Shown here: in pieces, positions 39,001-45,000 of the stretch | Position numbering within the stretch: position 1 is the stretch's first letter | How the letters are laid out: each line of letters begins with the position of its first letter | From: Alphaproteobacteria bacterium | GTDB lineage: Bacteria > Pseudomonadota > Alphaproteobacteria > GCA-2746255 | Length of the DNA: 64,000 nucleotides | Assembly: GCA_965249135.1 (NCBI GenBank) | Contig: OZ252220.1 | Coordinates: 1,472,001-1,536,000, forward strand | Direction: 5' to 3' | Program-made: the position numbers

Positions 39001-42000
39001 GCTCTTCCGTCTTGCGCACGGTAATAAAGTCAGCGCCCAGGAACACGCCGACCACGCCCGGAATGCCGAACAGTCGCATCGCCAGTGGCGAACGCACCGC
39101 CGCTTCGGACGATGCGAAATCGACCGTTCCTTCTTCCATGACCGTCTGACCGGGTAAGAACTTTAAAGACGCCGGGTTTGGCGTCTGCTCGGTCTGAATA
39201 AACAACGCGGAACCTCCTTGGCGAATCCAAGCCGCAGTTTAGCCGTTTCCTCGTTTGATACAAATTTAGAAAAAGAAATCTAAAATTCAAGCTTTCTTTA
39301 GATATTTCTTAAGGTTACCGGCCTAACCGTCGAGAAATTCACCGTTATTTAGGGGATTATATACGAAAGTCACATTTTGGCGTTGACATTACTGGGCCGT
39401 TCCTTTACAGTAAAGTCACATTACAAGAGGACGGATCATGAGCAAGAAAGCACCGGGAAAGAGCCACCGCAAGGGGATGACTCTCATAGAATTGACAGAG
39501 ATGTTCCCGGACGATGCGGCGGCGGAAAGGTGGTTTGCCAAGCACCGCTGGCCGGACGGCCCTTATTGCCCGCACTGCGGCTCCTTTAACGTCCAGTCCA
39601 ATGTCAAGCATCATTCAATGACGCACCGGTGCCGCGATTGCGCGGACAAGAAGATGTTTTCACTCAAGACGGGAACGCTAATGGAGGGTTCCAAGCTGGG
39701 ATACCGGGTTTGGGCGGTCGCCATTTATCTTCTCACGACGAACCTCAAAAGCGTGTCCAGCATGAAGCTGCACCGCGATCTCGGCGTCACGCAAAAGAGC
39801 ACGTGGCACTTGGCGCACCGGCTGCGCAAATCCTTCGAGGCGGGCGGCGGTCTGTTTGCCGGTCCCGTAGAGGTTGACGAGACCTATGTAGGCGGAAAGC
39901 GCCGCAATATGCCCAAGACCAAGCGGGCAAAGCTCCAAGGGCGCGGAGCCGTTGGGAAAGTTGCCGTCGCGGGTGCGAAGGACCGGGTGACGAAGCGTGT
40001 AAGCGCGGCGGTTGTTTCTGCTGCTGACAATGAGACATTACAAGGCTTCGTGCGGGAGCGTGTGGCTGGTGGCGCGGTGGTCTATACGGACGATCACGCG
40101 GCCTATCGCGGCATGGCCGGTTTCGCGCATGAGGCAGTAAAGCACTCGGTCGGGGAGTATGTCCGTGGCATGGCGCATACAAACGGCATCGAGTCCTTCT
40201 GGTCGATGCTGAAACGGGCTCACAAAGGCACATTCCACCAGATCAGCCCGAAGCACCTTAACCGCTACGTCGGCGAATTCGCGGGCCGTCACAATGTCCG
40301 CGAGGCCGACACGGTTGATCAAATGCAAACTGTGGCACATGGTTTGGCGGGAAAGAGGCTTCGATACCGGGACTTGGTGGCGGGGGTAAACGGCGAATGT
40401 TGACATCTTTGGAGGTCTGTGCGGGCGGCGGCGGAACAGCCCTCGGACTTGAACAAGCGGGATTCGATCACGTTGCATTAATGGACAGCGATTCGCATTC
40501 GTGTGCAACACTCCGGCAAAACCGGCCTTATTGGAACGTGATCCAAGCCGATATAAACCGGTTCGATTCGTCTTATTGGCGCGGTGTCGATCTTGTAAGC
40601 GGAGGCCTGCCATGCCCGCCATTTTCGATAGCTGGGAAGCAGCTAGGGTCCGATGATAACCGCGATCTGTTCCCGGCGATGCTCCGCATTGTCGAAAACG
40701 CCCATCCGCGCGCTGTCCTGATTGAAAACGTCAGGGGCATTATGTCGGCCCGCTTCGACTCTTACAGGGCACAATTGGACGGCGCGTTTGACCATCTGGG
40801 TTTCGACGTATATTGGACTGCGTTCAATGCGGCGGAATTCGGAGTTCCGCAGAACCGCTTGCGGATTTTCATCGTCGCCTTGCGGCGTGGCGAAACGGCA
40901 CCGTTGAAGTGGCCAATACCGTCCGATGGCCTGACACCGACAGTTGGTGAAACGGTGGGAGATTTAATGGCGGAACGCGGTTGGCGCGGCGCTGGGCAAT
41001 GGGTAAAGAAGGCAGCCGCGCCCGCGCCCACCATAGTTGGCGGTTCACACAAGCACGGCGGTCCAGATTTAGGGCCGACACGTGCCCGCCAGGAATGGGC
41101 AAAGCTTGGTGTTGATGGATTGGGCCTCGCAAATGAAGCACCTGCGCCCAAGTTTAGAGGATTGCCGCGCCTGACAGTTCCCATGGTGGCAAGGCTGCAA
41201 AGTTTTCCTGATGATTGGGCATTCGCGGGGGTCAAGACCAACCGCTACCGGCAAATCGGTAATGCATTGCCCGTCCGGCTTGCGATGGCCGTCGGCAAGG
41301 CCGTGCGAAAATGCCTCGCATAGGATCGAAAGAGAAAATCCGGCGTTTCCTGCTGGCGAATATTGGCCGGGTGATCGAATCCCACGAGTTGCAAGAAGCG
41401 GCGGACGGTGCCGTACAGTACAGCCGCCGTTTGAGAGAACTGCGTGATGAGGAGAGCTGGCCAATTCTGTCTCACAACGACTTGGCGGAGTTAAAACCAG
41501 GCCAGTACATGCTGAAAGAGGCACCAACGGACAAACGGGATATCGGTTTCGTCCGTGGCATTTCCGCGAAGCTCCGGGCTGAAGTGCTCGACCGGAACGG
41601 CTTCACCTGCCAAATGTGCGGGCTGACACCGGGCGGCATTGATCCGGCGACCAGGCGCAAGGTGCGGCTTCATATCGGCCACATTGTTGATAAAAGCCAT
41701 GGCGGAAAAGACGAACTGTCAAATCTCCGGGCTTTGTGCTCATCCTGCAATCAAGGCGCTAAGAACATCACGTCCGAAAAGCCAAGCACAATCTGGCTGC
41801 TATCTCAAATCAGGCGGGTCGGGAGAGACGAACAACGAGCCGTGTATGATTGGCTCAAACAGAAATTCAGCGATGGATAAGATTTCAGCAGAACGGCGCA
41901 GCGCGAACATGCGCGCAATCCGCAACAAGGATATGTCACCAGAGATCACGGTCCGCCGGGTAACACACGGCCTGGGGTTCCGTTACAGGCTTCACCGGCG

Positions 42001-45000
42001 CGATCTCCCTGGCTGCCCTGACCTGGTATTCTCAAGCCGGCGGAAAGTGATATTTGTGCATGGCTGTTTCTGGCATCAACACGCCTCCAAGGCGTGCAAG
42101 ATTGCCCGGATGCCAAAGTCTAACCAGAACTATTGGACAGCGAAGCTGAAAAGGAATGTGGCCCGGGATTCGGAAAACCAATCGCGTCTGCGTAAAATGG
42201 GCTGGGAAGTGGCTGTGATTTGGGAATGTGAAACGAAAGAACTAAAGGCGCTGAGAAAGAAGATCAGTAAGTTCTTGTTTAGGAAACCGCTAATTCCTTT
42301 GAACCTAGACAAACCGGTGGTCAAGGTTAAGCCCTACAGCTATCAGCCTTCAAAGGCCGAGATTGAATCCGATATAAGCATTCCGGTTACGCCGGATGAA
42401 CTGGCGCACAGCATCATGCAGTGTGTAAAAGTGAAGGAAACCGGCTAATTAAGTCTATGAAGAAGAGGCACGATGATGGCGATTGCTGAAACCCTGACCG
42501 CTCTCAAGTCCGTTCTTGACGTCGCAAACAACCTTAAATCCCTCAGTGAAGCGGCGTCCGCGGGAACGGCTCCGGGCGATCTCGCAAAGACGCTCAATGG
42601 GGAGATTCTCGAATTGCAGAGACAAGTCTACGCCGCCAACGAGAGCGCATTGGCTGCCCAAAAGGCGGAGGCGGGACTGACTCAGCGTATAAGCGAGATG
42701 GAAGAAATAATTGCTGGCCAGGAAAGCTGGACGGAGGAGAAGGCGCGCTATGAACTTCATAGGACTGGAGGTTCGGTCACAGTCTACCGTTTGAGAAAGG
42801 AACATATAAACGCCTCTGAACCCGCGCATTGCATTTGCCCAAACTGCTATACGCAAGGCCAGAAATCTATCCTTCAGCTTACCAATGTGGCGAATACGTT
42901 GTATCAACTGAACTGCCAGAGATGTGGCGAAATCGTGACTTAAATGACACCTTTTCTGTTGCAGATGCACCGGCCATCCTCTTTATCTGTAAAATGTGAC
43001 TTTCGTATATAATCCCCATTATTTAAGTTAGCGAACGAAGCTGTTCGTCGGTCAAATCGCCGGGCACGATCGTGATCGGGATCCGAATCTTGCCTGCCAT
43101 CTTGTTAACCAGATTGCTGATGATCGGTCCCGGCCCCTCCGGGCCTGAGGACGCGGCGAGCACGAGAATGGAAATGCTCGGCTCTTCCTCGATGACCTTC
43201 ACCAGCTCATCGCTGCGCGTTCCTTCCCGAACGAAGAGGACCGGTACCTTGCCGGTCAGTTCGTTCACTTCTTCCGAGAGCTGCTGGAGATGCTTCTCGG
43301 CTTCCGCGCGTGCCTCGTCGCGCATGAGCTCGCCAACCGTCATCCAGTGTTGGAAGTCGGCCGGCTCCAGCACGTAAAGAAGCGAGACGTAGCCCCCCGC
43401 GTTGCGGGCACGGTAGCAGGCAAAGCGAAGGGCCGTGCGCATCTCCTCCGTCGGATCGACGACGACGAGAAAACAGCGGCCGGATGGCTCCTTTTCGCTT
43501 TTCTTCTCTGGCGGCATGCGACCTCGAGACCATGAAATGGGGGGGGTAAGGGTCAGACCCGGCGGAAGAAGACCCCGGCCAACCATCCTGCCACCAGGGC
43601 GAGGAAAATAGCAACGATCCCATATTGCGCCGCATGGGCATGGGCAAAGTTGAAAATCGCCGCCTCAAGGCCCGTCTTCTGGACAATGAGTGGAGTCGTC
43701 TGGACGCTGACGACCCGCTTTTCCTTTACCAACAGCACCTTGACGGTGTAAACGCCGACCGGCACCGTCGCCGGAAAGAACAGGCGAGTCTGGAACAGGC
43801 TGTTGCTCATGAAGGCAATCTCTCCGGTCTTAACTCCATAGAGCTGCTGGGCCTGTTTGCCGCGGATCAGCGCCTCGCGAAAGAGGCCGATCGTTTCTTT
43901 CGGCGCCTTCTGTGCCGCTCTCAGCCGCAAGTTCTCCGCGCCGATCTCGTTACGGACGCGCATCTCATGGGGCACGATCTCGTCGACCGGCCGGTTCGAG
44001 GCGGCGGCGTAATAGGCCGGCACATCCCGAAAGCGCATTCGGCTGCGGTTCATCCAAATGCCGGCGACCGATTCCTTTTGCCGCACGATAAGGTCCTGCG
44101 CCGGCCCGCGAACGATGACGACGATGTCCCCTTCCCCTTCCGTCGCCCCAAAGAGCAGGACCTCCGCACCGGTGAAGCTGGTCGTGATCTCAATCAAATG
44201 GTCGGAGAGATCCGCCACCAGCGGTTCCGCCCGAGCCGATGGCGACCCAAGCCAAAAGAGCCCGATGACGCCAATCAAGGGAAGGAAAAGCCGGTGAAGG
44301 AAATCGGGTCCGTTCATGGCATCACCAAGCTTAAGGAGAAGACGTCCGCCGGCGTTGCCACCAATCCCCAAAGCATCCGCGCGCAGACGAAAAGGACCAA
44401 CAGGGCAAGCAGGCTTCTCAGTTCGTCGCTCTGCAGCTTGCCGCCGAAGCGCGTGCCAAGCTGGGCGCCGATCACGCCGCCAGTCAGAAGCAGGAGCGCA
44501 AGCAGAACGTCCACCGTCTGATTGTGCAACGCCTGCAGGAACGTCACGTTCGCCATGACGAAGATGATCTGGAAAAGCGAGGTGCCGACGACGACGGTGG
44601 TCGGCATGCCGATGAAATAGATCATCACCGGTATCAGGATGAAGCCGCCGCCGACCCCCATGATGGCGGCGAGCACACCGACGAAAACCCCGACCCCGAG
44701 CGGCAAGAGCGCGCTGATGTAGAGCTTCGAGCGGTGAAACCGCATCTTGAAGGGAAGCCCATGCACCCAGCGATGCTGGTGCAGCTTTCGTCGCGGCGAG
44801 ATGTGCCGGCGGCGGCGGAAGACGCTACGGGTGCTTTCCGCAAACATGAGGCTGCCGATCACGCCCAGGAAAACGACGTAAGCCAGCGCGATGACGAGAT
44901 CGATCTGGCCCAGACTCCGGAGGTAGGAAAACAGCCACACGCCGACGGTGGAGCCGAGTAGACCTCCGATGACGAGCACGATCCCCATCTTCAAGTCGAC

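What a model noticed while it worked through the whole genome (the two positions that open the first line are those of the whole stretch)
39352..43017. Six divergent IS1595-family transposons each carry a different restriction-modification or defence gene as cargo
Each of the six full-length IS1595-family transposase genes (of 8 copies; the six proteins are only 34-51% identical to one another) sits inside its own pair of terminal inverted repeats together with a different defence cargo, so the IS itself is the mobile unit. The six elements are: C1:33972-36482 (N6/N4 MTase g00029 + 188-aa g00028); 671450-674928 (724-aa PADLOC candidate PDC-S46, g00687); 887984-890711 (BglII-like R+M); 1038824-1041283 (496-aa MTase, inside a prophage); 1281019-1283533 (HhaII-like R+M); and 1511352-1515017 (C5-MTase + HNH nuclease + Vsr + g01602). 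Five of the six are flanked by 8-bp target duplications. The last element has spawned two derivatives. One is a 228-bp MITE [...]
Evidence so far: Transposases: self-BLAST of the 8 copies. Ends: exact inverted repeats of 16-27 bp bracket transposase plus cargo, and they extend outward to a shared G-run end. Target duplications: 8-bp direct repeats lie at 33964-33971/36483-36490, 671442-671449/674929-674936, 887976-887983/890712-890719 and 1281011-1281018/1283534-1283541 (all 8/8), and at 1511344-1511351/1515018-1515025 (7/8). MITE: 1511352-1511470 equals 938705-938823 (100%) and 1514908-1515018 equals 938823-938933 (98%), so the MITE is an internal deletion of the full element. The 20-bp end core occurs 9 times forward and 5 times reverse, and the pairs at 938705/938932 and 1978040/1979190 are flanked by identical 8-mers. 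Cargo: PADLOC [...]
(Added by a program. Inside this text positions count along the whole contig: contig position 1,472,001 is position 1 of the stretch shown here. "Call 12" and the like, gene names such as g00115 and contig names such as C1 are that model's own, and its searches are not shown. The text may have been shortened before it was handed on; [...] marks where a part breaks off. The agent that wrote the report below was given it as the finding of a first reader that could run no searches.)

Follow-up and report, generated by a model that had tools for sequence, protein, structure and literature searches.

The report
Small transposon carrying phage-defence genes
A 3.7-kb insertion sequence of the IS1595 family has recently jumped into this genome carrying its own restriction-modification system and a second anti-phage gene, showing how the smallest transposons can ferry bacterial immunity genes around.

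Summary
Window 39352-43017 is a 3,666-bp IS1595-family element. It has perfect 27-bp terminal inverted repeats and an 8-bp target duplication (7/8). One co-oriented gene string runs through it: transposase, C5 DNA methyltransferase, HNH nuclease, Vsr, a small conserved ORF, and the 'unknown' g01602.

g01602 is a Rip1-family anti-phage pore protein (profile against PDB 9oox, E 1.3e-28). The element therefore carries two defence systems.

Mobility as a unit is now well supported:
- Same-genus genomes have the empty site.
- Contigs from three other samples, over 99% identical in the flanks, join 39344 directly to 43019.
- A 228-bp MITE and a 1,151-bp derivative that captured hicAB share the identical ends and have perfect 8-bp duplications.

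The other five elements, and a seventh decayed one, are real. The unknown ORF of element 1 has a restriction-endonuclease fold.

The kind is already known: 'transporter IS' with passenger genes, and R-M units bounded by inverted repeats with 8-bp duplications. The new points are these:
- The clade is mostly cargo-bearing across many phyla.
- Cargo modules are shuffled between IS backbones.
- A small right-end ORF is predicted to bind the transposase.

Transposition itself was not observed. Verdict: a real, well-documented new member of a known kind, of moderate interest.

The parts
39344..39351 (.). Left copy of the 8-bp target duplication (GTTATTTA).
   Evidence: The empty-site contigs keep one copy, reading GTTATTTA (table 8).
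39352..39378 (+). Left terminal inverted repeat, 27 nt, beginning GGGGATTATATAC.
   Evidence: pair I1, 100% complementary. The same 27-mer occurs 14 times in the genome.
39383..39411 (+). Promoter-like site TTGACA-17-TACAGT just inside the left end, reading into the transposase gene.
   Evidence: 10 of 12 matches. It is the only such site in the element, and one site is no more than chance gives (shuffles average 2.2). Weak evidence.
39438..40403 (+). IS1595-family DDE transposase, 321 aa, with an N-terminal zinc ribbon.
   Evidence: PF12762 at 4.7e-42 and PF12760 at 5.2e-09. Invariant D147, D218, E252 and K259 across the six copies.
40397..41323 (+). C5 cytosine DNA methyltransferase, 308 aa. 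Its start overlaps the transposase stop by 7 nt.
   Evidence: PF00145 at 6.8e-61.. Overlap shown.
41311..41880 (+). HNH nuclease, 189 aa, the candidate restriction enzyme. It overlaps the methyltransferase gene by 13 nt.
   Evidence: PF01844 at 1.7e-10. REase_II PDLC03503 at 3.7e-09. Relatives (69-83% identical) sit directly after a matching methyltransferase in 45 of 80 metagenome loci.
41873..42298 (+). Vsr very-short-patch repair endonuclease. Its ATG lies 8 nt before the HNH stop, and the frame runs on into the small ORF with no stop.
   Evidence: PF03852 at 1.1e-26. PDLC03397 at 8.1e-28..
42299..42448 (+). Small conserved ORF (49 aa if read from the in-frame TTG; motif YQPSKAE..TPDELA). 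In relatives it is a separate gene next to the right end. It is predicted to bind the transposase.
   Evidence: alignment A2, 13 sequences. No Pfam or PDB match. Complex model scores 0.82 against a best control of 0.13.
42473..42943 (+).
   Evidence: profile against PDB 9oox 'ring interacting pore 1', E 1.3e-28. Foldseek 9oox_M, E 1.1e-07, TM 0.83, rmsd 1.8, 30% identity; phrog_1244 at 2.2e-26.
42991..43017 (-). Right terminal inverted repeat, 27 nt.
43018..43025 (.). Right copy of the target duplication (ATTATTTA; its first base differs from the left copy).

Best explanation
Window 39352-43017 is an autonomous 'transporter' insertion sequence of the IS1595 family. Its end type, GGnnATTAT, is the one I recall for the ISNwi1 subgroup.

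Movement (inferred from the family and from the end and duplication structure): the DDE transposase recognises the two 27-bp inverted ends and inserts the whole 3,666-bp unit into AT-rich targets of the form nWWnnWWn, duplicating 8 bp.

Cargo: between the ends the element carries a co-oriented, overlapping gene string behind the transposase gene.
- A Type II restriction-modification system: C5 methyltransferase first, then an HNH nuclease.
- A Vsr endonuclease, which would repair the T:G mismatches that 5-methylcytosine deamination causes.
- A small ORF that in relatives is a separate backbone gene and is predicted to bind the N-terminal part of the transposase.
- A Rip1-family gene. Rip1 is a single-protein abortive-infection system that forms a membrane pore when triggered by phage portal or small-terminase rings.

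Shown here: the anatomy; the insertion polymorphism; the non-autonomous derivatives; the family memberships of the proteins.

Inferred: that the transposase is active now; that the nuclease and methyltransferase share a specificity and restrict phage; that the whole string is one transcript from the promoter-like site in the left end; that the small ORF regulates transposition.

The other five full elements in the genome are the same kind of unit with other cargo. The cargo modules have been exchanged between different IS backbones.
For: Anatomy:
- 27/27 inverted repeats and a 7/8 duplication.
- Protein domains.
- Gene overlaps of 7, 13 and 8 nt.

Insertion as a unit:
- In G002 and G001 the two flanks lie 9 bp apart. 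G004 and G005 also lack the element, with about 160-170 bp between the flanks. So 4 of the 4 same-genus genomes in which the flanks matched lack it.
- Contigs from runs X5, X6 and X8 (three samples, three studies) join 39344 to 43019 with 3-4 mismatches in about 930 bp. They skip exactly 3,666+8 bp (table 8, records 9, 16, 23).

Activity in trans:
- The 228-bp MITE is 100% and 98% identical to the element's two ends and has an 8/8 duplication.
- A 1,151-bp unit with the same ends and an 8/8 duplication encloses hicA and hicB.

Other copies:
- Exact empty sites for E2, near-exact for E5.
- Four perfect 8-bp duplications among the six.

Cargo identity:
- Rip1.
- E1's ORF: the top 12 structural matches are all restriction enzymes or MutH. 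NaeI gives Z 8.8, rmsd 3.6 over 138 aligned; SfiI gives Z 7.9, rmsd 4.5 over 160 aligned. P61, D62, E86 and K88 are invariant.

Family-wide pattern, among the 80 loci nearest to the E6 transposase:
- 59 have bracketing repeats with the same tip.
- 37 of those have perfect 8-bp duplications.
- Only 7 of the 59 are under 1.6 kb.
- 13 of 36 bounded cargo-bearing elements carry DNA methyltransferase or R-M genes, with the order transposase, M, R on one strand in 12 of the 13.

Target preference: duplications are 77-80% AT in DNA that is about 40% AT.
Against: - No transposition event was observed. Contigs, not reads, carry the empty-site evidence.
- The right duplication copy differs at one base.
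- E4 has no duplication. E1 and E4 flanks have no counterpart in relatives, and E3 lies in a 4.1-kb island that relatives lack, so for those three the insertion is not delimited by an empty site.
- The promoter-like site is a single consensus match, no more than chance gives.
- The restriction role of the HNH protein rests on weak REase_II hits (3.7e-09) and on linkage. Specificity and activity are unknown.
- The M-HNH-Vsr module mostly occurs without a transposase: 31 of 35 metagenome loci with at least 2 kb upstream have none.
- In E6 the small ORF has no ATG of its own and is fused in frame to vsr, so it may not be made as a separate protein.
- The transposase-small ORF complex is a model score only.
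- The subgroup name rests on a recalled end consensus.
Confidence: 0.85

Rival explanations
1. The cargo is not primarily host immunity. It is a set of addiction modules that serve the IS. R-M, toxin-antitoxin and abortive-infection genes kill or disadvantage cells that lose them, so carrying them would stabilise the transposon against deletion and help it establish after transfer. Any phage defence would be a by-product.
For: The recognisable cargo is dominated by modules known to be addictive. In this genome that means R-M in five elements and hicAB in the transposase-less derivative. In relatives it means PIN and Panacea-domain proteins. The order with M first and R last, directly coupled to the transposase gene, fits safe establishment in a new cell. 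That R-M systems behave as selfish mobile units is the theme of Furuta et al. 2010 (PMC2853133; passages read).
Against: PDC-S46 and Rip1 are not known addiction modules. Rip1 alone was reported as non-toxic (review PMC13434031, section 5). Many cargo ORFs in relatives have no recognisable function. The two readings are not exclusive, and nothing here measures stability.
Confidence: 0.3
2. E6 is a now-immobile relic. The inverted repeats, duplication and MITEs record past activity, and the presence/absence difference among strains reflects an old insertion or a later precise deletion rather than current transposition.
For: The element is single copy. One base of the duplication has mutated. 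A related locus in another family (G018) is clearly a fossil: a left end identical at 26/27, a decayed transposase gene and no right end. Two of the eight transposase copies in this genome are degenerate.
Against: The transposase frame is intact with all invariant catalytic residues. Both 27-nt ends are perfect and identical to those of 12 other end copies. The MITE's two arms are 100% and 98% identical to the parent. The strains with the empty site are over 99% identical in the flanks, so the event is recent on the scale of strain divergence.
Confidence: 0.12
3. The unit is not a single IS with cargo. It is a chance composite: a plain IS next to an R-M island, with a stray MITE end downstream that happens to form an inverted pair.
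For: Stray ends of this element exist in the genome (solo and truncated copies). The 1,151-bp derivative shows that an extra right end can recruit foreign DNA. The M-HNH-Vsr module usually occurs without any transposase.
Against: The 8-bp duplication flanks the outer pair, and the empty-site contigs lack exactly the whole 3,666 bp plus one duplication copy. No inner right end lies after the transposase gene (one search lists all end copies). The same layout (ends, transposase, M, R) recurs with perfect duplications in unrelated genomes, for example L144, L061, L089 and L077. However the cargo was first captured, the present unit moved as one piece.
Confidence: 0.03

Closest known systems
Transporter IS (tIS) of the IS1595 family. 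Source: Siguier, Gagnevin and Chandler 2009, Res Microbiol. I could not read the paper; I know it only through citing passages in PMC3129680 and PMC11891212. The subgroup names and end consensus are recalled from ISfinder.
   Same: A single DDE transposase with an N-terminal zinc ribbon, short terminal inverted repeats, an 8-bp duplication, and extra passenger genes unrelated to transposition inside the ends. The tip GGGGATTAT fits the end consensus I recall for the ISNwi1 subgroup, which has cargo-bearing members.
   Different: The citing passages name transcription regulators as IS1595-family passengers and place methyltransferases in another family. Here the cargo is complete R-M systems, a PADLOC candidate system and a Rip1 homologue. 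Also seen here: a conserved small right-end ORF, and exchange of cargo between backbones. I did not find either in the papers searched.
Transposon-like R-M units of Furuta, Abe and Kobayashi 2010 (PMC2853133; passages read). The closest case is the Neisseria gonorrhoeae unit with 26-bp inverted repeats, an 8-bp duplication, a Type IIG R-M gene and a COG3677 transposase-like gene.
   Same: R-M genes inside short inverted repeats, an 8-bp target duplication, an empty site in a related genome, and a transposase homologue inside the unit.
   Different: There the transposase-like gene was judged a likely inactivated derivative, and the authors could not say what moved the unit. Here the transposase is intact and assignable to IS1595, there are MITE derivatives, and six or seven such units lie in one genome.
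Rip1, ring interacting pore 1 (PDB 9oox). Source: Patel et al. 2026, as summarised in review PMC13434031, section 5.
   Same: g01602 matches it over nearly its whole length by sequence profile (E 1.3e-28) and by fold (TM 0.83, rmsd 1.8, 30% identity). Both have N-terminal helices and a C-terminal domain.
   Different: The review says Rip1 genes are found mostly in prophages. This one rides an insertion sequence beside an R-M system. Its trigger and pore activity are untested.
Defence cargo of Tn7-like transposons (Benler et al. 2021, PMC8649781). I saw only the search listing and the start of the abstract.
   Same: Transposons whose cargo is rich in defence systems.
   Different: Those are large multi-gene transposition machines with site-specific targeting. 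These are minimal one-transposase elements of 2.5-3.7 kb with AT-rich, non-specific targets.
MITEs and mobile insertion cassettes, as described in PMC3129680 (passage read).
   Same: The 228-bp element is the two ends of E6 joined by an internal deletion, without a transposase and flanked by an 8-bp duplication. The 1,151-bp unit is a cassette with hicAB between the same ends.
   Different: Nothing unusual. They are useful as evidence that the E6 transposase, or a near relative, has acted in trans.

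Membership tests
IS1595 family insertion sequence | DDE transposase with the DDE_Tnp_IS1595 domain and an N-terminal IS1595 zinc ribbon. 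| tested here: met
   PF12762 at 4.7e-42 (cut-off passed) and PF12760 at 5.2e-09. The same holds for the other five copies. D147, D218, E252 and K259 are invariant.
IS1595 family insertion sequence | Short terminal inverted repeats bracketing the transposase gene. | tested here: met
   27/27. for the other elements.
IS1595 family insertion sequence | [quoted passage not shown] | tested here: met
   7/8 at E6; 8/8 at E1, E2, E3, E5, the MITE, the hicAB unit and copy 8. 37 of 59 bounded relatives have 8/8. The empty site keeps one copy.
ISNwi1 subgroup of IS1595 | End consensus ggnnatTAT and a DDEK catalytic signature (both recalled from ISfinder and not checked against any reference sequence). 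| tested here: inconclusive
   The ends read GGGGATTAT, and the invariant residues are D, D, E with K seven residues later, which fits the recalled consensus. No ISNwi1 reference was available for comparison. A search for the name found two papers, neither about this.
Transporter IS (IS with passenger genes) | Genes unrelated to transposition lie inside the ends and move with them. | tested here: met
   The five cargo reading frames lie inside the repeats. The empty-site contigs lack ends and cargo together.
Type II restriction-modification system | A DNA methyltransferase and a separate nuclease encoded side by side. | tested here: met
   PF00145 and PF01844 in overlapping genes. The pair is conserved in G018 and in 45 of 80 metagenome loci.
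Type II restriction-modification system | The nuclease cuts the same sequence that the methyltransferase protects. | not testable with these tools
   This needs a methylome and cleavage assays. The only support for a restriction role is weak REase_II profile hits (3.7e-09).
Vsr endonuclease | Vsr domain, encoded next to a C5 methyltransferase. | tested here: met
   PF03852 at 1.1e-26 and PDLC03397 at 8.1e-28. A Vsr homologue was found in 40 of 80 loci, directly downstream of the HNH gene in most.
Rip1 (ring interacting pore 1) defence proteins | Sequence and fold similarity to the solved Rip1 over the whole protein. | tested here: met
   E 1.3e-28, profile positions 9-145 against chain residues 20-154 of 164. 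E 1.1e-07, TM (target) 0.83, rmsd 1.8 over 116 columns. The model has mean pLDDT 87.5.
Rip1 (ring interacting pore 1) defence proteins | Pore formation triggered by phage portal or small-terminase rings, giving abortive infection. | not testable with these tools
   Known only from the review's account of Patel et al. 2026.
MITE derived from E6 | Both ends of the parent, no transposase, and a target duplication. | tested here: met
   938705-938823 equals E6 positions 1-119 (100%) and 938823-938932 equals E6 positions 3557-3666 (98%). AAAAACTG 8/8.
PD-(D/E)XK restriction endonuclease (E1's 188-aa ORF) | Restriction-endonuclease-like fold with a PD...(D/E)xK motif. | tested here: met
   NaeI Z 8.8 (rmsd 3.6, 138 aligned), SfiI Z 7.9 (rmsd 4.5, 160 aligned), and the top 12 rows are all restriction enzymes or MutH. 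P61, D62, E86 and K88 are invariant in 25 sequences. Foldseek alone was not significant (best E 0.081).

The most novel reading that the evidence does not exclude
This is one lineage of a very large, cross-phylum clade of IS1595 elements that acts as a modular shuttle for immunity and addiction genes. In this reading the backbone is a transposase gene at the left end and, in the E6 sub-clade, a roughly 50-aa transposase-binding protein gene at the right end. Cargo sits between them or just after the small gene. R-M, toxin-antitoxin and abortive-infection modules are swapped between backbones. The same BglII-type R-M rides at least four transposase lineages, and the E6-type M-HNH-Vsr rides E1-type backbones elsewhere. 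One mechanism of capture is visible in this genome: a MITE paired with a further stray end enclosed hicAB and moved. If this holds, the smallest autonomous transposons are a major and overlooked vehicle for moving defence systems between distant bacteria.
Probability: 0.4. Interest if true: 0.65.

Novelty: new member of a known kind. Interest (0 to 1): 0.5.

Why it matters
How restriction-modification and other defence genes move between genomes is a long-standing question. Most documented vehicles are large: prophages, plasmids, integrative islands and Tn7-like transposons.

Here a minimal one-transposase element carries two complete defence systems. The evidence that it moved is unusually clean:
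- a precise empty site in near-identical strains;
- a MITE with a perfect duplication;
- a derivative that captured a toxin-antitoxin pair.

This makes it a tractable natural model for testing three things: whether an IS can establish an R-M system in a new site or host, whether such cargo stabilises the IS, and what the small transposase-binding ORF does.

It also reassigns an 'unknown' gene to the newly described Rip1 family and places that family on an IS, outside the prophage context where it was described.

Tried and rejected
- Reading Siguier et al. 2009 and the 2014 FEMS review of insertion sequences: neither is held. What those papers say about R-M passengers in IS1595 elements remains unseen and could lower the novelty further.
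- Literature searches found no description of this clade or of its small ORF. The searches covered IS1595 with passenger genes, R-M, ISNwi1, sponge symbionts and anti-phage terms. The library lacks most subscription journals.
- Pfam and PADLOC on g01602 and on E1's ORF gave nothing. Only structure and profile-against-PDB searches resolved them.
- The small ORF has no Pfam or PDB match (best PDB E 0.92).
- Empty sites for E1 and E4: their flanks are not found in the five same-genus genomes. E3 lies in a 4.1-kb island that the relatives lack.
- The shorter transposase copy (181393-182154) has no detectable family-type ends.
- E4 'in a prophage': of 11 flanking ORFs within 2 kb, one has primosomal PHROG hits and one a weak unknown-function hit. 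This is not enough to decide.
- The - strand ORF 42455-42970 (171 aa), opposite g01602, has no family hit. I rejected it in favour of the + strand Rip1 homologue.
- Druantia as a reading for the methyltransferase: its best PADLOC hits are DruM models, but no other Druantia gene lies in the element, so I rejected it.
- The careful tree search did not finish in 300 s. I used the quick IQ-TREE tree.
- In read laying, parts of the cargo had no cover in runs X5, X6 and X8. I draw no conclusion from that.

Full report
**Observation**

Arms 39352-39378 and 42991-43017 are 27 nt long and perfectly complementary. The 8 bases outside them read GTTATTTA and ATTATTTA.

The window lies at 1472001-1536000 of a single 2,118,282-bp contig with 60.3% G+C. 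tblastn of the window transposase finds eight loci in this genome. Six are full length, one is shorter and more distant (29% over 298 aligned positions), and one is split by a frameshift. The six full proteins are 36-52% identical pairwise.

I recomputed ends and flanks for all six elements.
- E1, E3 and E5 have clean inverted repeats and perfect 8-bp duplications.
- E2 has a perfect duplication, but its repeats line up only with a 2-nt offset.
- E4 has repeats and no duplication.
- E6 has a 7/8 duplication.

A perfect 8-mer match has a chance of 1 in 65,536 per element, so four perfect matches are far beyond chance. All six elements have lower G+C (51-59%) than their flanks, except E4, which sits in DNA that is itself low in G+C.

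**Anatomy of the window element (E6)**

All real genes are on the + strand.
- Transposase, 39438-40403: PF12762 at 4.7e-42 and the zinc ribbon PF12760.
- C5 DNA methyltransferase, 40397-41323: PF00145 at 6.8e-61. Its ATG overlaps the transposase stop by 7 nt.
- HNH nuclease, 41311-41880: overlaps the methyltransferase gene by 13 nt.
- Vsr, ATG at 41873: overlaps the HNH gene by 8 nt.
- A segment 42299-42448 that continues the vsr frame with no stop.

The only sigma-70-like site in the element is TTGACA-17-TACAGT at 39383-39411, just inside the left end. One such site is no more than chance gives, so this is a hint only.

**g01602 is a Rip1 homologue**

It has only 11 sequence relatives within the length range searched. 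None has an informative name; the only function-like label, 'rubrerythrin', is a source's automatic one.

A model built from an alignment of 10 of the 11, plus the query, has mean pLDDT 87.5. Foldseek against the PDB puts 9oox first: 'phage HK446 Rip1 in complex with T6 small terminase', E 1.1e-07, target TM 0.83, rmsd 1.8, 30% identity. A sequence profile of the same alignment hits the same chain, named 'ring interacting pore 1 (Rip1)', at E 1.3e-28 over nearly its whole length. The protein also matches phrog_1244, of unknown function, at 2.2e-26.

A 2026 review (PMC13434031, section 5, read) summarises Patel et al. 2026. Rip1 is a single-protein anti-phage system. Phage portal or small-terminase rings trigger it to assemble a membrane pore and lyse the cell early. 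Its genes lie mostly in prophages.

E6 thus carries two defence systems: a Type II R-M with its Vsr repair partner, and a Rip1-type abortive-infection gene.

**Evidence that E6 moved as a unit**

First, relatives. A 6.4-kb query around the element was searched in 30 related genomes.
- In same-genus genomes G002 and G001 the two flanks lie 9 bp apart.
- G004 and G005 also lack the element, with about 160-170 bp between the flanks.
- The fifth same-genus genome, G003 (88% complete), gave no match.
- The G002 empty site reads ...TTTTTAAGTCAGC..., where G000 has GTTATTTA-[IS]-ATTATTTAAGTTAGC.

Second, public sequencing runs. In each of X5, X6 and X8 (three samples, three studies) a single contig covers 38900-39344 and 43019-43500 at adjacent contig positions, with 3-4 mismatches (table 8, records 9, 16, 23). 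The skipped stretch is 3,674 bp, which is the element plus one duplication copy. The joined sequence keeps a single GTTATTTA. Strains more than 99% identical in the flanks therefore lack the element, so the insertion is recent. In X1, the best holder and possibly the source sample, contigs break at the element's ends.

These are contigs, not reads. They show that the empty form exists, and nothing about its frequency.

**Derivatives**

The 27-nt end occurs 9 times forward and 5 times reverse in the genome.
- The 228-bp MITE at 938705-938932 is E6 positions 1-119 (100%) joined to positions 3557-3666 (98%). It is flanked by AAAAACTG on both sides.
- A 150-bp copy at 1103937-1104086 has no duplication.
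- The unit 1978040-1979190 (1,151 bp) is flanked by TAATTTAG 8/8. It holds a left end, an inner right end at 1978371-1978397 and an outer right end. Between the two right ends lie two - strand ORFs that match HicB (3.8e-09) and HicA (2e-06).

The last case shows how new cargo can be recruited. A MITE plus a further stray end enclosed a toxin-antitoxin pair, and the outer pair of ends was then used for transposition.

**The other elements**

Cargo calls reproduce.
- E1: an N6/N4 methyltransferase (PDLC03215 at 9e-117) and a 188-aa ORF.
- E2: a 745-aa ORF that matches PADLOC candidate PDC-S46 end to end (1.9e-256).
- E3: a methyltransferase and a BglII-type nuclease.
- E4: a 545-aa ORF with a methyltransferase domain and a marginal Mrr_cat hit at residues 416-473 (21.2 bits against a cut-off of 21).
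- E5: a methyltransferase and an REase_II (PDLC03487 at 7.4e-41).

E1's 188-aa ORF belongs to a large family, with 2,804 hits and the top 120 at 65-100% identity. In 25 aligned members P61, D62, E86 and K88 are invariant. Its model has pLDDT 80.1 and pTM 0.80. Foldseek found nothing significant (best E 0.081, SfiI). The exhaustive structural search put restriction enzymes or MutH in all of the top 12 rows:
- NaeI: Z 8.8, rmsd 3.6, 138 aligned.
- SfiI: Z 7.9, rmsd 4.5, 160 aligned.
- 3ndh: Z 7.6.

E1 is therefore a complete R-M unit.

Empty sites in the five same-genus genomes:
- E2: exact in G001, G002 and G004.
- E5: near-exact in G002.
- E3: lies inside a 4.1-kb stretch that the relatives lack.
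- E1 and E4: flanks not found.

The frameshifted copy sits in a 2,357-bp element (2029855-2032211). Its repeats match 16/19, its duplication is CCTTAATT 8/8, and it holds two small ORFs with no PHROG hit, not otherwise scanned.

**The wider clade**

A pattern scan of one genome per species found 600 relatives, of which the 80 nearest to the E6 transposase were kept (49-69% identical). They come from metagenome-assembled genomes (MAGs) titled Dehalococcoidia, Acidobacteriota, Poribacteria, Rhodothermales, Bryobacterales, Binatia, Gemmatimonadota, Actinomycetota, and Alpha- and Gammaproteobacteria. A protein search returned 7,999 proteins at E<=1e-30 before its cap.

Structure of the 80 loci:
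- 59 have bracketing inverted repeats with the same tip (GGnnnTTAT).
- 37 of those have a perfect 8-bp duplication, and 41 have at least 7/8.
- Lengths run from 1,245 to 11,719 bp.
- Only 7 of the 59 are under 1.6 kb, so most carry cargo.

I annotated the 36 elements with a duplication of at least 7/8 and a length of at least 1.7 kb.
- 13 carry DNA methyltransferase or R-M genes: BglII, SacI, NotI and NgoFVII-type nucleases, HNH fusions, GIY-YIG and a Type IIG enzyme.
- In 12 of the 13 the order is transposase, M, R on one strand. In the thirteenth (L090) the methyltransferase-HNH ORF lies on the opposite strand, overlapping the transposase match.
- The rest carry Clp or SDH-type proteases, PIN, Panacea-domain proteins, glycosyltransferases, an integrase or an HTH plus phosphoribosyltransferase, or nothing that Pfam recognises.
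- PADLOC on 84 of the 103 ORFs added little.

The 80 loci are the nearest to E6, not a random sample. Long 'elements' without a perfect duplication may be mis-paired ends.

Duplications are 77% AT for the eight in this genome, against 40% for the genome. They are 80% AT for the 37 relatives, against 41% for their flanks. W is favoured at positions 2, 3, 6 and 7.

**A conserved small ORF**

The tail of the vsr frame in E6 (42299-42448) is similar to a short ORF found in 12 relatives of the E6 sub-clade. It is usually the last gene, ending 17-127 bp from the right end. L059 is a 1,531-bp element made only of the transposase gene and this ORF, with a perfect duplication.

The 13 sequences share YQP[ST]KAE[LM]EE...TPEELA (alignment A2). 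None matches Pfam, and the best PDB hit has E 0.92. E1-E5 have no counterpart.

A complex prediction of the E6 transposase and the 49-aa product, each given as an alignment, gave these figures:
- Score 0.82, against a best control of 0.13.
- In the tool's calibration the mark was reached by 116 of 157 solved complexes and 2 of 215 mismatched pairs. Those counts hold only roughly, because my own alignments were used.
- The runs agree in at least 79% of contacts.
- The partner's pLDDT is at least 76.

The contacts fall on transposase residues 32-138, the zinc-ribbon and helix-turn-helix part. This supports binding and does not show it.

In E6 the ORF has no ATG and is fused in frame to vsr, so it may be made only as a Vsr tail, or not function at all.

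**Cargo is shuffled between backbones**

Three lines of evidence point this way.

1. E3's BglII-type M and R are 69-77% and 61-78% identical to those in L048, L061, L067 and L089 (Alpha- and Gammaproteobacteria and Dehalococcoidia MAGs). Their transposases are only 46-61% identical, and their ends differ beyond the tip.

2. A metagenome scan with the E6 HNH protein found 563 relatives, of which the best 80 (69-83% identical) were kept. Among those 80:
   - 45 have the matching methyltransferase.
   - 40 have Vsr.
   - 11 have an IS1595 transposase.
   - Of 35 loci with at least 2 kb upstream, only 4 have a transposase upstream.

   Seven of those 11 transposases are E1-like, not E6-like: 64-76% identical to E1's transposase, and where contig ends allowed, with E1-like repeats. 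The rest are nearest E2 or are weak. L144 is a 2,976-bp element with CAATAAAA 8/8 that carries transposase + M (70%) + HNH (74%) + Vsr (52%).

3. Conversely, L071 and L078 have transposase genes 69% identical to E6's but different cargo: an unknown protein plus PIN, and a Type IIG enzyme. L078's transposase frame is broken.

On a quick maximum-likelihood tree of 85 transposases, the R-M label on 19 rows needs 16 changes, of which at least 10 are forced by well-supported branches. Shuffled labels need 17.4 on average, and 106 of 500 shuffles do as well. R-M cargo is therefore not clustered on the tree. The careful search did not finish, and E2 and E4 sit on long branches.

A fossil relative lies in G018, a genome of the same class but another family. 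It has a left end identical at 26 of 27 positions, a decayed transposase gene, M at 60% and HNH at 57%, and no Vsr or right end.

**Mechanism and rival readings**

The best reading is an autonomous transporter IS. The transposase binds the 27-bp ends and inserts the unit with an 8-bp staggered cut at AT-rich sites. The cargo is expressed with, or behind, the transposase gene. The methyltransferase comes first, which suits establishment in a new cell.

The chemistry and the mode of transposition were not tested here. I know of no experimental study of transposition in this family (recalled, not searched).

Three rivals:
- The cargo mainly serves the IS as addiction modules. This is not exclusive with defence.
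- The element is an immobile relic. This is made unlikely by the perfect ends, the intact frame, the near-identical MITE and the polymorphism among near-identical strains.
- The unit is a chance composite. This is excluded for the present unit by the empty-site junction.

**Comparison with what is known**

IS elements with passenger genes ('transporter IS') were defined in the paper that established the IS1595 family (Siguier et al. 2009). I could not read it. I saw only citing passages in PMC3129680 and PMC11891212.

Furuta et al. 2010 (PMC2853133; passages read) cite that paper for IS-flanked R-M and M genes. They also describe R-M units inside inverted repeats with 8-bp duplications and empty sites, including one in Neisseria gonorrhoeae with a COG3677 transposase-like gene.

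Defence cargo in Tn7-like transposons is in print (PMC8649781; I saw the listing and the start of the abstract only).

My searches found no account of this clade's cargo spectrum, of cargo exchange between IS1595 backbones, of the small ORF, or of Rip1 on an IS. The library lacks most subscription journals, and the key 2009 paper was not seen.

**Verdict**

It is a new member of a known kind, with some features that may prove new. Interest is moderate (0.5).

Noticed in passing
window 42299-42448; relatives L078:10554-10715, L059:8197-8412, L083:13952-14122 and others (alignment A2): A conserved ORF of about 50-70 aa (motif YQP[ST]KAE[LM]EE..TPEELA) lies 17-127 bp from the right end in many elements of the E6 sub-clade. 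It has no Pfam or PDB match. It is predicted to bind the N-terminal part of the transposase (score 0.82 against a best control of 0.13). In E6 it is fused in frame to vsr.
   Followed up: partly
G000:C1:1978040-1979190 (L009:1001-2151): A transposase-less unit with E6 ends, an extra inner right end and a perfect 8-bp duplication encloses a hicA/hicB toxin-antitoxin pair. It looks like a snapshot of cargo capture by a MITE plus a stray end.
   Followed up: yes
G000:C1:1105140-1106173, next to 1103937-1104086: Three tandem copies, spaced 355 bp apart, of a 325-bp piece of a 358-bp MITE variant lie beside a 150-bp MITE copy that has no duplication. The origin of the tandem array is unexplained.
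   Followed up: no
G000:C1:1012756-1014414 and 1059503-1061867: Two similar sets of MITE fragments lie in the same orientation about 46.7 kb apart and bracket the region that holds E4. They could be the ends of a duplicated or tandem mobile region.
   Followed up: no
G000:C1:2029855-2032211 (L007:856-3212): A seventh element: inverted repeats matching 16/19, a perfect duplication CCTTAATT, a frameshifted transposase gene and two small cargo ORFs (77 and 153 aa) with no PHROG hit, not otherwise scanned. Its ends begin CCCAATTATATAC and CCTAATTATATAC rather than GGG.
   Followed up: partly
L018 (G018:C1:296000-305000), about 4160-6010: A fossil of an E6-like element in a genome of another family. 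It has a left end identical at 26/27, a decayed transposase gene, a methyltransferase (60% identical, with a break near residue 250) and HNH (57%), and no Vsr or right end.
   Followed up: partly
G000:C1:1039618-1041255 (L004:2795-4432): E4's cargo ORF is 545 aa. It has an N6/N4 methyltransferase domain and a marginal Mrr_cat nuclease hit at residues 416-473, so it may be a fused methyltransferase-nuclease rather than an orphan methyltransferase. A unit with 61% (transposase) and 58% (cargo) identity lies in a Dehalococcoidia MAG (L045).
   Followed up: partly
target duplications of 8 elements in G000 and of 37 relatives: Insertion sites are strongly AT-rich (77-80% AT in DNA of about 40% AT) with a symmetric nWWnnWWn pattern. 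The E6 duplication abuts the stop codon of the neighbouring - strand gene (43023-43586).
   Followed up: yes
window 39670-39823 and 40132-40285: In all four runs laid, contig depth over the two most conserved transposase motifs sums to about 590-2,500. Flank depth sums to 2-10. Relatives of this transposase therefore appear very abundant in those communities. Depth from contigs is only a rough guide.
   Followed up: no
L099-L178 (metagenome loci): The HNH nuclease of E6 is unusually conserved for a restriction enzyme: 69-83% identical in 80 loci. Its M-HNH-Vsr module occurs mostly without any transposase.
   Followed up: partly
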